Source: Candidatus Hydrogenedentota bacterium
Lineage (GTDB): Bacteria; Hydrogenedentota; Hydrogenedentia; Hydrogenedentales; JAEUWI01
NCBI GenBank assembly: GCA_046047315.1
Contig: JBJOID010000062.1
Location: 5,896-69,895, forward strand
Reading direction: 5' to 3'
Length of the DNA stretch: 64,000 nucleotides
Part shown: in pieces, positions 43,625-44,872 of the stretch
Numbering within the stretch: position 1 is the first letter of the stretch
Layout: each line of letters opens with the position of its first letter
Translations under genes and position numbers: made by a program
The notes under the pieces: model-generated
Told to the model about the DNA's origin: nothing
Database searches by the model: none
The model's input: the letters and a program-made list of their open reading frames with translations, nothing else

Positions 43625-44872
43625 ATTCCCTTACGTATCGTGTTGACCGTATCGCTATTGCTATTGGCCGCATTCTCAGCCCATGCCGATACCCCGCCGA
43701 ACGTGGTGATGATCATCAGCGACGACCAGGCCTGGAACGATTACGGCTTCATGGGGCACGAGGCCATAAAGACGCCGCATCTGGATCGGCTGGCATCGGA
43801 AGGGATGCTGTACACGCGGGGCTATGTGCCTGGAAGCCTGTGCCGGTGCAGCCTCGCGACGCTGGCAACGGGACTCTATCCGCACCAGCATGGCATCACC
43901 TCGAACGATCCGCCGGACGGCGTGGACCGGCACGCCATGCTGCGCTTCATCGAGGCGGCATCCACGCTGCCCGCGCTGCTGGCAAGGCAGGGCTATGCGA
44001 GCCTGCAAACCGGAAAGTGGTGGGAGGGAAACTATCAGCTGGGCGGCTTCACCCATGGCATGACACACGGCGATCCGAAGCGCGGCGGGCGGCATGGCGA
44101 CGAGGGGCTGAAGATTGGCCGTGAGGGTCTGGAGCCCATCAAGAAATTCCTGGACGAGACGAAGGACAAGCCCTTTTTCTTGTGGTATGCGCCCTTCTTG
44201 CCGCACGAGCCGCACAATCCACCTGAGCGCCTGCTCGCGCAATATCGCGCGGAAGGACGGCCCGAGAACGTGGCCAAGTACTGGGCGATGTGTGCATGGT
44301 TCGACGAAACAATAGGCGAGCTGCTCGGGCTGCTGGAAGCCGAGGGCAAACGCGAGAACACGATGGTGGTCTATGTGGGCGACAATGGCTGGGTGGCCAA
44401 CCCCAACGGGCCGGGCTTCGACGACCGCAGCAAGCGCTCACCCTACGACGCCGGACTGCGCACGCCCATCATCGTGCATTGGCCGGGCCGCATCGAACCC
44501 CGGCGCGACGACGTCACTCCCGTGCTCAGCCTCGACTTGGTGCCCACGATATTGCGGGCTTGTGGCGCGGAAGTGACCTCCGACATGCCGGGGGTGGATC
44601 TGTTGAGCGGAAAGGCCAAAGAGCGCAAGCGTATTTTTGGCGAAGTGTTCACCCACGACGCGGTCGACCTGGACCACCCCGAGCGGAGCCTGCTCTATCG
44701 CTGGTGCGTGGACGACGAGTGGAAACTCATCCTGCCCCAGGACACCGCAGTCCCGGCCGAGCTTTACCGGATCACGGTAGATCCCTTCGAGCAGAACAAC
44801 CTTGCTGCTGAGGAACCCGGCCGCGTGAAGAAGATGTCGGAGGCGATAGAGGCATGGTGGGCTTTGCCATAG
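43607..44872 (+). CDS. sulfatase-family protein with non-canonical active-site motif (C-R-C-S-L instead of C-x-P-x-R)
   Basis: Signal peptide MGDVLRIPLRIVLTVSLLLLAAFSAHA; sulfatase N-domain NVVMIISDDQAWNDYGFMGHE...GYVPGSLCRCSLATLATGLYPHQHG. Motif codons tgc cgg tgc agc ctc at 43841..43855. The upstream 57 aa of the ORF-track frame are translation of the repeat element. Confidence 0.75.
   Translation: MGDVLRIPLRIVLTVSLLLLAAFSAHADTPPNVVMIISDDQAWNDYGFMGHEAIKTPHLDRLASEGMLYTRGYVPGSLCRCSLATLATGLYPHQHGITSNDPPDGVDRHAMLRFIEAASTLPALLARQGYASLQTGKWWEGNYQLGGFTHGMTHGDPKRGGRHGDEGLKIGREGLEPIKKFLDETKDKPFFLWYAPFLPHEPHNPPERLLAQYRAEGRPENVAKYWAMCAWFDETIGELLGLLEAEGKRENTMVVYVGDNGWVANPNGPGFDDRSKRSPYDAGLRTPIIVHWPGRIEPRRDDVTPVLSLDLVPTILRACGAEVTSDMPGVDLLSGKAKERKRIFGEVFTHDAVDLDHPERSLLYRWCVDDEWKLILPQDTAVPAELYRITVDPFEQNNLAAEEPGRVKKMSEAIEAWWALP

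What the first reader, a model, noticed from the sequence alone, without database searches (positions are those of the whole stretch)
43841..43855. Sulfatase homolog with C-R-C-S-L in place of the C-x-P-x-R formylglycine motif
In the alignment GYVPGSLCRCSLATLATG versus the canonical SLCTPSRAALLTG, the nucleophile cysteine is kept. The Pro (+2) is replaced by Cys and the Arg (+4) by Leu. Both positions are needed for recognition by the formylglycine-generating enzymes FGE and anSME. The other sulfatase in the window (19843..21705) has a canonical CAPNR. This protein may be unmodifiable (a pseudo-sulfatase or binding protein), may use the unmodified Cys, or may be matured by a different system. 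Its 5' end is embedded in the MITE-like element.
Basis: partly seen in the sequence, partly recalled or inferred. Interest (0 to 1): 0.5.

Follow-up and report, generated by a model that had tools for sequence, protein, structure and literature searches.

The report
Sulfatase clade lacking the formylglycine-motif arginine
The gene encodes a secreted sulfatase-like protein from a large, conserved and uncharacterised bacterial clade that keeps the catalytic cysteine and metal site but has replaced the two residues that normally serve the formylglycine cofactor, so it probably works by an altered mechanism and is neither broken nor a sequencing error.

Summary
Window 43841-43855 encodes C-R-C-S-L exactly where S1 sulfatases carry C-x-P-x-R, and the protein has no canonical motif anywhere else. 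It is not an error: the identical protein occurs in three independent sources.

Pro→Cys at +2 is a minor variant of the nearest (Hydrogenedentota) relatives. The defining change is Arg(+4)→Leu. It is invariant across a large clade with consensus C-R-P-S-L, found in at least 589 species genomes, mostly Planctomycetota, Verrucomicrobiota and Hydrogenedentota.

All four Ca2+ ligands, the Cys, and the Lys/His/Lys sulfate-binding residues stay at least 98% conserved. This argues against a decayed pseudo-enzyme. Clade members are fused to, or clustered with, canonical sulfatases and glycan-active domains. No maturase gene is linked.

Barbeyron et al. 2016 noted nine such sequences and guessed they "may be inactive". 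Nothing has been characterised. My best reading is an active glycan-ester hydrolase with rewired nucleophile chemistry, possibly formylglycine-independent. Whether formylglycine forms cannot be decided computationally.

The parts
43607..44872 (+). CDS of the sulfatase-like protein (421 aa plus stop; NCBI MFM1918968.1). True start is ATG 43607, with a GAGGGGG Shine-Dalgarno-like run just upstream.
   Evidence: PF00884 Sulfatase 6.8e-49. Identical 421-aa database protein and JGI gene call. Homologues are 410-430 aa. AF2 model pLDDT 94.5, with S1 sulfatase fold.
43607..43687 (+). Sec-type signal peptide MGDVLRIPLRIVLTVSLLLLAAFSAHA, with predicted cleavage after AHA. No lipobox and no twin-arginine.
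   Evidence: Read directly from the sequence. The model has a helix at residues 9-24 followed by the mature domain. The cleavage site is inferred, not predicted by a tool.
43721..43726 (+). D39-D40, the first pair of Ca2+ ligands (PAS Asp13/Asp14 equivalents).
   Evidence: Aligned to ADD of 6PRM. Invariant in A1. 116/116 and 114/116 in diverse clade representatives.
43841..43855 (+). C79-R80-C81-S82-L83, the variant of the C/S-x-P/A-x-R formylglycine motif. C79 is at the nucleophile position and L83 replaces the Arg.
   Evidence: C79 and L83 are 123/123 in clade representatives.
44015..44023 (+). K137-W138-W139. K137 is the sulfate-binding Lys (PAS Lys113). W139 replaces the catalytic HisA (PAS His115).
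   Evidence: GKWWEG aligns with GKWHLG of 6PRM. Joint counts of (pos83, pos139): L/W 231, R/H 15.
44090..44101 (+). R162-H163-G164-D165 (GGRHGD loop). Invariant in the close family and present in about two thirds of the wider clade. Candidate relocated Arg/His.
   Evidence: Invariant in A1. R 89/135 and H 75/136 in representatives. Its spatial position could not be tested.
44120..44122 (+). R172, a clade-specific, near-universal Arg. Best candidate to replace the lost Arg(+4).
   Evidence: 114/117 in clade representatives, and not conserved in canonical domains. The role is inferred only.
44204..44206 (+). H200, equivalent to PAS His211 (leaving-group and sulfate-binding His).
   Evidence: PHEP aligns with VHTP of 6PRM. 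112/113 in representatives.
44381..44392 (+). D259-N260-G261-W262. D259 and N260 are the second pair of Ca2+ ligands. W262 is clade-specific (canonical enzymes have Gly).
44432..44434 (+). K276, equivalent to PAS Lys375 (sulfate-binding Lys).
   Evidence: SKR aligns with TKS of 6PRM. 98/100 in representatives.
43477..43622 (.). Nested palindromic (MITE/REP-like) element. The outer arms are 43477-43493 / 43606-43622 and the inner perfect 18-nt arms are 43521-43538 / 43561-43578. The right outer arm contains the ATG and the first five codons.
   Evidence: RNA fold -96 kcal/mol, z = -9.05. A second copy lies at about 40790-40940.

Best explanation
Window 43607-44872 encodes a secreted member of a large, ancient, selectively maintained clade of S1 (formylglycine-type) sulfatase homologues. 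In this clade the active-site helix reads C-x-[P/A/C]-[S/A]-L instead of C/S-x-P/A-x-R, and the GKWH histidine is tryptophan.

Shown: the Ca2+ site (D39, D40, D259, N260), the nucleophile-position Cys79 and the sulfate-ester binding and leaving-group residues (K137, H200, K276) are all kept. The only two catalytic residues lost are those that, in canonical enzymes, hydrogen-bond and deprotonate the second hydroxyl of the formylglycine gem-diol (Arg+4 and HisA). Both are replaced, in strict correlation, by hydrophobic Leu and Trp.

Inferred: the protein is still a metal-dependent ester hydrolase acting on sulfated glycans next to canonical sulfatases. It cannot run the canonical gem-diol elimination step, and it lacks the Arg anchor that FGE and anSME grip. 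I therefore favour a formylglycine-independent cycle. In it the metal-bound Cys79 thiolate attacks the ester directly, and the covalent intermediate is resolved by water, helped by clade-specific residues (R172, Q134, and R162/H163 in this sub-family).

Confidence is about 0.85 that this is a real, selected, family-wide active-site variant. It is about 0.7 that the protein is catalytically active. It is about 0.4 for the specific formylglycine-independent mechanism.
For: Homology and fold: PF00884 6.8e-49. Best PDB matches are S1_19/S1_16 carbohydrate sulfatases. AF2 pLDDT is 94.5.

Family-wide motif: the 120 closest clusters are all C-R-[P/C/A]-S-L. 123 diverse 50%-identity representatives have C79 123/123 and L83 123/123. 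At least 589 species genomes carry a relative. Leu is encoded by all six codons.

Correlated second change: (pos83, pos139) = L/W 231 and R/H 15.

Retained machinery: D39, D40, K137, H200, D259, N260 and K276 are each at least 98% conserved.

Roles of the lost residues: Arg55 stabilises FGly and is 99% conserved in 4058 S1 sequences, and His115 is the base for the E2 elimination from the FGly-diol (PMC5066984). The Arg is the anchor in the FGE and anSME pockets (PMC13638132).

Chemical feasibility: choline sulfatase with unmodified Cys is still a multiple-turnover enzyme, kcat 0.27 s-1 (PMC6189696).

Glycan and sulfatase context: clade members are fused to canonical CxPxR sulfatase domains, SASA esterase, BNR sialidase-like, 3-keto-disaccharide hydrolase and Laminin_G_3 domains. 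13 of 81 loci have canonical sulfatase genes within 10 kb, including a five-sulfatase same-strand cluster in L005.

No dedicated maturase: no conserved neighbour in 80 loci, and an FGE-like ORF in only 1 of 80.
Against: No experimental data exist for any clade member. Whether Cys79 is converted to formylglycine cannot be read from sequence. Pro at +2 (109/123), Ser/Ala at +3 and the L-x-TG tail of the sulfatase motif are still conserved. This would be expected if a maturase still recognised the segment, although these residues also have structural roles. HisA is only 81% conserved in canonical S1 sulfatases, so its loss alone is not decisive. An S-sulfocysteine intermediate is chemically fairly stable (my own knowledge), so a thiolate mechanism would suit phosphate esters better than sulfate esters. 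I could not obtain model coordinates, so the proposed helper residues (R172, R162/H163, Q134) are not shown to reach the active site. A scan for a selenocysteine (TGA) variant at the nucleophile position, which would have supported direct use of the side chain, found only one spurious hit.
Confidence: 0.4

Rival explanations
1. Formylglycine is still made and used. A relaxed-specificity maturase converts Cys79: either one of the several FGE paralogues that these phyla carry, or an anSME. The protein is then an ordinary FGly-dependent carbohydrate sulfatase in which other residues (R172, R80, R162/H163) take over the jobs of Arg+4 and HisA.
For: Cys is 100% conserved, and Pro(+2), Ser/Ala(+3) and the L..TG tail are largely kept. 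Planctomycete genomes encode 7-8 FGE-like genes each (PMC4807772). A clade-specific, near-universal Arg (R172, 114/117) exists. HisA is dispensable in about 19% of canonical S1 enzymes. The genomic and fusion context is the same as for canonical sulfatases. From memory and not verified here: Rush and Bertozzi 2008 reported that bacterial FGEs tolerate substitutions at the Pro and Arg positions of aldehyde tags.
Against: The Arg is the main anchor in both FGE and anSME substrate pockets. It is 99% conserved in S1 enzymes. Both gem-diol partners are replaced by hydrophobic residues, strictly and together, which is odd if the gem-diol is still used. In this protein and its nearest relatives the +2 Pro is also gone (Cys or Ala). 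No maturase is linked to the gene.
Confidence: 0.3
2. Non-catalytic pseudo-sulfatase. The protein cannot be matured and has lost turnover, and it serves as a secreted sulfated-glycan binding or sensing module. This is the 'may be inactive' reading of Barbeyron et al. 2016.
For: Loss of the 99%-conserved Arg and of the elimination base. The authors of SulfAtlas suggested inactivity for nine such sequences. Fusion to a canonical sulfatase domain could be read as a binding module attached to a catalytic module.
Against: All four metal ligands, the Cys and the K/H/K triad are at least 98% conserved across representatives down to about 35% identity and across several phyla. Pseudo-enzymes normally let such residues drift. 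Canonical-plus-canonical tandem sulfatases are equally common, so fusion does not imply a binding role. A binding module would not need an invariant Cys at the nucleophile position.
Confidence: 0.2
3. Artefact: a sequencing or assembly error, or a decaying pseudogene specific to this genome.
For: None beyond the unusual motif. The 5' end overlaps a repeated palindromic element, which could disturb expression.
Against: Identical protein in three independent data sources. The ORF is intact and the structure model is confident. The same motif occurs in hundreds of genomes with synonymous codon variation.
Confidence: 0.01

Closest known systems
SulfAtlas family S1 (formylglycine-dependent sulfatases). 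The nearest solved members are the S1_19 kappa/iota-carrageenan sulfatases (PsS1_19B 6PRM/6PSM, ZgCgsA 9HH2) and S1_16 enzymes.
   Same: Same two-domain alkaline-phosphatase-superfamily fold (Foldseek E 6e-32, TM 0.75). Same Ca2+ ligands, same nucleophile position, and the same Lys/His/Lys sulfate-binding set. Secreted, and in a glycan-degradation context.
   Different: Only 24-29% identity. Arg(+4) of the signature is Leu and HisA is Trp. There are extra clade-specific residues (Q134, R172, W262). The excursion between the GKW strand and the PFF strand is much shorter: 14 versus 46 unaligned residues against 6PRM.
The nine Lentisphaerae/Planctomycetes 'putative sulfatases' with Ile/Leu in place of Arg55, noted by Barbeyron et al. 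2016 (PMC5066984).
   Same: Same substitution and the same phyla, so almost certainly early-sampled members of the same clade.
   Different: They were mentioned in one sentence as possibly inactive. The clade's size, its strict conservation, the coupled His→Trp change and the fusion and cluster context were not described. I could not check the nine accessions against this clade.
Unmodified (Cys-form) choline-O-sulfatase of Ensifer meliloti (PMC6189696).
   Same: An S1-fold enzyme that turns over sulfate esters with a plain cysteine at the nucleophile position. This is a precedent for the favoured mechanism.
   Different: That enzyme has a canonical CxPxR motif and is naturally FGly-dependent. 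The Cys form is a low-activity by-product of heterologous expression, not an evolved state.
Ser/Thr-nucleophile members of PF00884 (phosphoethanolamine transferases such as EptA/MCR-1, and lipoteichoic acid synthase LtaS).
   Same: They share the Pfam sulfatase domain and work without formylglycine, using the side chain at the equivalent position directly.
   Different: Those enzymes are membrane-anchored transferases with a Thr nucleophile and different metal and substrate residues. They give only marginal hits here (LtaS E 9e-5, 21 bits against a cut-off of 970).

Membership tests
S1 formylglycine-dependent sulfatases (SulfAtlas S1 / PF00884 / PROSITE PS00523 and PS00149) | Sulfatase (alkaline-phosphatase-type) N-terminal domain plus a small C-terminal domain | tested here: met
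   PF00884 167 bits and SGSH_C 51 bits, both above cut-off. AF2 model matches S1 structures at TM 0.75.
S1 formylglycine-dependent sulfatases (SulfAtlas S1 / PF00884 / PROSITE PS00523 and PS00149) | Cys or Ser at the formylglycine position at the start of the active-site helix | tested here: met
   C79 aligns with Cys77 of 6PRM. 123/123 in the clade.
S1 formylglycine-dependent sulfatases (SulfAtlas S1 / PF00884 / PROSITE PS00523 and PS00149) | Core signature C/S-x-P/A-x-R: an Arg four residues after the nucleophile (99% conserved; the FGE/anSME anchor and FGly stabiliser) | tested here: not met
   The residue is L83. Leu is invariant in the clade. The required pattern [CS]-[STACGMV]-[PA]-[STAGF]-R fails at +1 (R), +2 (C) and +4 (L).
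S1 formylglycine-dependent sulfatases (SulfAtlas S1 / PF00884 / PROSITE PS00523 and PS00149) | Second signature G-Y-x-[TSCV]-x(3)-G-K-x(0,3)-[WMYNLF]-[HLGN], containing Lys113 and the catalytic His115 | tested here: not met
   GYASLQTGKWW has the Lys, but the last position is Trp, which is not among H/L/G/N.
S1 formylglycine-dependent sulfatases (SulfAtlas S1 / PF00884 / PROSITE PS00523 and PS00149) | Four Ca2+ ligands (Asp, Asp, Asp, Asn/His) and the sulfate-binding His211 and Lys375 equivalents | tested here: met
   D39, D40, D259, N260, H200 and K276 are aligned to 6PRM and at least 98% conserved.
S1 formylglycine-dependent sulfatases (SulfAtlas S1 / PF00884 / PROSITE PS00523 and PS00149) | Post-translational conversion of the Cys/Ser to C-alpha-formylglycine | not testable with these tools
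   Needs mass spectrometry or aldehyde labelling of the protein.
S1 formylglycine-dependent sulfatases (SulfAtlas S1 / PF00884 / PROSITE PS00523 and PS00149) | Sulfate-ester hydrolase activity | not testable with these tools
   No clade member has been assayed. A literature search for the motif found nothing.
Unnamed 'C-x-P-x-L / GKWW' clade of S1 homologues (defined here) | Leu at +4, Trp at the HisA position, Q134, R172 and W262, together with otherwise canonical S1 catalytic residues | tested here: met
   The window protein has all of them. It is 55-73% identical to 119 other clusters that carry the same features.
Named NCBIfam equivalogs (arylsulfatase PRK13759, choline-sulfatase, PehA, Mn-arylsulfatase, PhoY, LtaS) | Whole-protein score above the curated cut-off | tested here: not met
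   Best is 129 bits against a cut-off of 481. All other hits fall further below their cut-offs.

The most novel reading that the evidence does not exclude
The C-x-P-x-L / GKWW clade is a widespread family of formylglycine-independent S1-fold esterases. They use a metal-bound cysteine thiolate as the catalytic nucleophile. This would be the first natural Cys-nucleophile lineage in the alkaline-phosphatase superfamily. It would free PVC-group and Hydrogenedentota bacteria from O2-dependent FGE or SAM-dependent anSME maturation when degrading sulfated (or phosphorylated) glycans.
Probability: 0.3. Interest if true: 0.8.

Novelty: new variant of a known kind. Interest (0 to 1): 0.5.

Why it matters
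The CxPxR arginine is treated as diagnostic of type I sulfatases. It is 99% conserved, it is used as a filter when counting sulfatases in planctomycete genomes (PMC4807772), and it is the anchor for both known maturases.

A clade present in hundreds of species breaks this rule while keeping the rest of the catalytic apparatus under strict selection. There are three possibilities. A new maturation specificity exists. The S1 scaffold can work without formylglycine. Or an unusually well-conserved pseudo-enzyme family has a binding role.

Any of these would change how sulfatase repertoires in marine and sediment PVC bacteria are annotated and counted. The second would also add a new nucleophile type to the alkaline-phosphatase superfamily. 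It could explain how strict anaerobes that carry only O2-dependent FGEs desulfate glycans, a paradox raised in PMC6388578. The question can be tested directly with one expression construct and a mass spectrometer.

Tried and rejected
1. Sequencing error or pseudogene: rejected. The identical protein is in three sources, the motif recurs in hundreds of genomes, and codons vary synonymously.

2. A canonical motif elsewhere in the protein: none found.

3. A conserved neighbouring maturase or partner gene. All-vs-all clustering of ORFs from 80 homologous loci (±10 kb) found only generic, low-frequency neighbours: ABC ATPase in 14 loci, GFO/IDH/MocA oxidoreductase in 12, PSCyt/PSD1 in 11, DUF1501 in 10. 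An FGE-like ORF appeared in 1 of 80 loci and no rSAM-SPASM ORF. Regex scans for FGE or anSME signatures in the window were negative, but this is a weak test.

4. A selenocysteine (TGA) variant at the nucleophile position. One metagenome-wide pattern scan gave one hit, which is spurious with no ORF. I half-remembered reports of Sec-containing sulfatase homologues, but the paper library did not confirm them.

5. Structural test of whether R172, R162/H163 or Q134 reach Cys79. The AF2 model is confident, but no coordinates are exposed to the scripting environment, so distances could not be measured.

6. AFDB fold search for UniProt cross-references: the library was unavailable.

7. Literature. Searches for CRPSL or CxPxL found nothing relevant. 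Dierks 1999 (PMC1171293) is not held. The SulfAtlas 2022 update, the Kiritimatiellales paper, the fucoidan-Planctomycetota paper and the Akkermansia paper do not mention the variant.

8. Upstream gene as a functional partner. Window 42308-43429 gives only a sub-threshold deoxyhypusine-synthase-like hit (23 bits against 27) and is not conserved next to homologues.
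Full report
**1. The observation**

The ORF listed as window 43436-44872 (+) contains TGC CGG TGC AGC CTC at 43841-43855, which encodes C-R-C-S-L.

The real gene almost certainly starts at ATG 43607:
- The database copy of the protein is 421 aa (NCBI MFM1918968.1, "Arylsulfatase precursor", Candidatus Hydrogenedentota). It is also present in a JGI metagenome and a Logan SRA assembly.
- Homologues are 410-430 aa.
- The 421-aa form begins with a typical Sec signal peptide, MGDVLRIPLRIVLTVSLLLLAAFSAHA.

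In that numbering the motif is C79-R80-C81-S82-L83.

The protein is a genuine sulfatase-domain protein (PF00884, 6.8e-49). Its best solved relatives are S1_19 and S1_16 carbohydrate sulfatases (6PRM 2.7e-44; Foldseek E 6e-32, TM 0.75, 28-29% identity on an AF2 model of pLDDT 94.5). The HMMER alignment puts SLCRCSLATLATG on STCGPSRAGLMTG of 6PRM. So the Cys is at the formylglycine position, +2 is Cys instead of Pro, and +4 is Leu instead of Arg. No [CS]-x-[PA]-x-R exists anywhere else in the protein.

**2. It is a family trait, and the key change is Arg→Leu**

- The 120 closest 90%-identity clusters (55-73% identity) all carry C-R-[P/C/A]-S-L: 69 CRPSL, 27 CRCSL, 21 CRASL.
- The Cys at +2 is confined to the nearest relatives (ranks 1-20, the Hydrogenedentota subgroup).
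- In an exhaustive HMMER search of 1.84 billion 50%-identity representatives, nearly all of the best 150 hits (33-62% identity) read C-x-P-[S/A]-L.
They span all major orders of Planctomycetota, Verrucomicrobiota, Hydrogenedentota and Brocadiia, with scattered Anaerolineales, Armatimonadota and Bacteroidota. Cultured strains are included, such as Roseimaritima sediminicola JC651 and Novipirellula rosea JCM 17759.
- Across 79 loci the +4 Leu is encoded by all six Leu codons. This is amino-acid-level purifying selection.

**3. A second, correlated active-site change**

The canonical GKWHLG motif is GKWWEG here. I aligned all 325 domain hits to the family HMM. The joint states of position 83 (Arg+4) and position 139 (HisA) are L/W 231 and R/H 15, with only a handful of other combinations. 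The R/H pairs all belong to the canonical sulfatase domain of two-domain fusion proteins.

Barbeyron et al. 2016 (PMC5066984) describe the roles of these two residues. Arg55 stabilises the formylglycine and is 99% conserved in 4058 S1 sequences. [quoted passage not shown] A 2026 study adds that the Arg is the anchor that engages both the FGE and the anSME substrate pockets (PMC13638132).

So the clade has lost exactly the two residues dedicated to the gem-diol half of the canonical mechanism. It has replaced them with hydrophobic side chains.

**4. What is kept**

Counts below are from 123 diverse clade representatives. The same residues are invariant in the 120-sequence alignment A1.

| Residue | Role | Conservation |
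|---|---|---|
| D39 | Ca2+ ligand | 116/116 |
| D40 | Ca2+ ligand | 114/116 |
| C79 | nucleophile position | 123/123 |
| K137 | sulfate-binding Lys | 119/121 |
| H200 | sulfate / leaving-group His | 112/113 |
| D259 | Ca2+ ligand | 104/105 |
| N260 | Ca2+ ligand | 104/105 |
| K276 | sulfate-binding Lys | 98/100 |

Clade-specific conserved residues that canonical domains lack are Q134, R172 (114/117) and W262. In about two thirds of the clade, including this protein, there is also a GGRHGD loop (R162-H163). These are candidates for relocated catalytic groups. I could not test their spatial position because model coordinates are not exposed.

**5. Context**

No neighbour is conserved across 80 homologous loci (±10 kb). 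Only 1 of 80 has an FGE-like ORF nearby, and none has an rSAM-SPASM ORF.

In the window, the gene sits between two unrelated units. Upstream is a weakly deoxyhypusine-synthase-like gene. Downstream is a convergent sigma-54 two-component and type IV pilus ATPase block.

Functional association comes from fusions and clusters:
- Clade domains are fused to canonical CxPxR sulfatase domains (P0121, P0122, P0123, P0126, P0138).
- They are also fused to a SASA carbohydrate esterase, a BNR sialidase-like domain, a 3-keto-disaccharide-hydrolase domain, and Laminin_G_3 and Big_5 modules.
- 13 of 81 loci carry canonical sulfatase genes within 10 kb. In L005 the CRPSL gene sits inside a same-strand run of five sulfatase genes.

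This places the clade in sulfated-glycan processing.

**6. Mechanism**

*Shown.* The metal site, the ester-binding residues and the Cys are intact. Arg+4 and HisA are lost. The protein has a secretion signal. The context is glycan and sulfatase related. No maturase gene is linked.

*Inferred.* The strict conservation of the remaining catalytic set argues for an active hydrolase (about 0.7). The canonical second half-reaction, base-catalysed elimination from the gem-diol, cannot proceed as in known S1 enzymes. The Arg anchor for FGE and anSME is also missing. Two routes remain.

- I slightly favour (0.4) a formylglycine-independent cycle with the metal-bound Cys79 thiolate as nucleophile. Hydrophobic replacement of both gem-diol partners makes sense if no gem-diol exists. 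In addition, unmodified-Cys choline sulfatase is already a multiple-turnover enzyme (kcat 0.27 s-1; PMC6189696).
- The main rival (0.3) is that FGly is still installed by a relaxed or specialised maturase, with R172 or other residues substituting. Planctomycetes carry 7-8 FGE-like genes (PMC4807772). The retained Pro(+2), Ser(+3) and L..TG tail in most clade members would fit this.
- A non-catalytic binder, the reading implied by Barbeyron et al., gets 0.2, because pseudo-enzymes rarely keep every metal and substrate ligand invariant across phyla.
- An artefact is excluded.

**7. Comparison with the known**

The protein has the S1 fold and most S1 catalytic residues. It fails both PROSITE-type S1 signatures as updated by SulfAtlas: [CS]-[STACGMV]-[PA]-[STAGF]-R, and …G-K-x-[WMYNLF]-[HLGN]. 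It reaches no NCBIfam equivalog cut-off.

The only prior mention I found is one sentence in Barbeyron et al. 2016. It notes nine Lentisphaerae and Planctomycetes sequences with Ile or Leu for Arg55 that "may be inactive". Searches for the motif itself found nothing, and no structure of the clade exists. Genome surveys that count only sulfatases "containing the active site" would have skipped this clade.

I therefore class it as a new variant of a known kind: known fold and family, previously glimpsed, but uncharacterised and much larger and more constrained than realised.

**8. The 5' end**

A nested palindrome spans 43477-43622. The outer arms are 43477-43493 / 43606-43622. The inner 18-nt perfect arms are 43521-43538 / 43561-43578. 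As RNA it folds at -96 kcal/mol, z = -9.05. A second copy lies at about 40790-40940.

The right outer arm contains the ATG and the first five codons. The other copy reads GAC where this one reads GAT-G. The start codon therefore lies inside the element, and in the predicted fold it is base-paired. This could damp translation, but it does not affect the mature protein.

**9. Verdict**

Interest is 0.5. This is a testable enzymological question about a large, neglected clade, not a singular oddity of this genome.

Noticed in passing
window 43477-43622, with a second copy at about 40790-40940: A nested palindromic element of about 150 nt (MITE/REP-like) is present twice in the window. The copy upstream of the sulfatase-like gene folds as RNA at -96 kcal/mol (z = -9.05). 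Its right terminal arm contains the Shine-Dalgarno-like GAGGGGG, the ATG at 43607 and the first five codons, so the translation start is predicted to be base-paired. The other copy has GAC where this one has the ATG.
   Followed up: partly
window 42308-43429 (+): The upstream co-directional gene (373 aa) has no Pfam hit on record. It gives only a sub-threshold match to deoxyhypusine synthase (PF01916, 23.4 bits against a cut-off of 27). It is not conserved next to homologues of the sulfatase-like gene.
   Followed up: partly
window 19843-21720 (-): A second sulfatase gene (625 aa) has canonical VCAPNRAAVITG and SDHG motifs. It also has a long C-terminal extension of about 200 aa with no Pfam match reported.
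   Followed up: partly
window 44882-52957 (-): Convergent with the sulfatase-like gene lies a block encoding a sigma-54-dependent response regulator, a PilS-like PAS histidine kinase and three T2SSE/MshEN-type ATPases (a type IV pilus or type II secretion-like cluster), according to the JGI gene calls for the same contig.
   Followed up: no
proteins P0121, P0122, P0123, P0126, P0138 (fusion proteins from the representative library): Two-domain proteins recur that join a canonical CxPxR/GKWH sulfatase domain to a CxPxL/GKWW domain, in both orders. These natural fusions would be convenient for testing both active-site types in one polypeptide.
   Followed up: partly
L005 6833-18073: A Planctomycetaceae MAG has five sulfatase genes on one strand. 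The CRPSL-type gene (9944-11287) is flanked by four canonical ones (CMTNR, CSPTR, CTPSR, CSPTR).
   Followed up: no
window 43676-44242 (-) and the equivalent position in 73 homologous loci: A long antisense 'shadow' ORF overlapping the sulfatase-like gene is 'conserved' across loci. I take this to be a by-product of high GC content and conservation of the sense-strand protein, not a gene.
   Followed up: no
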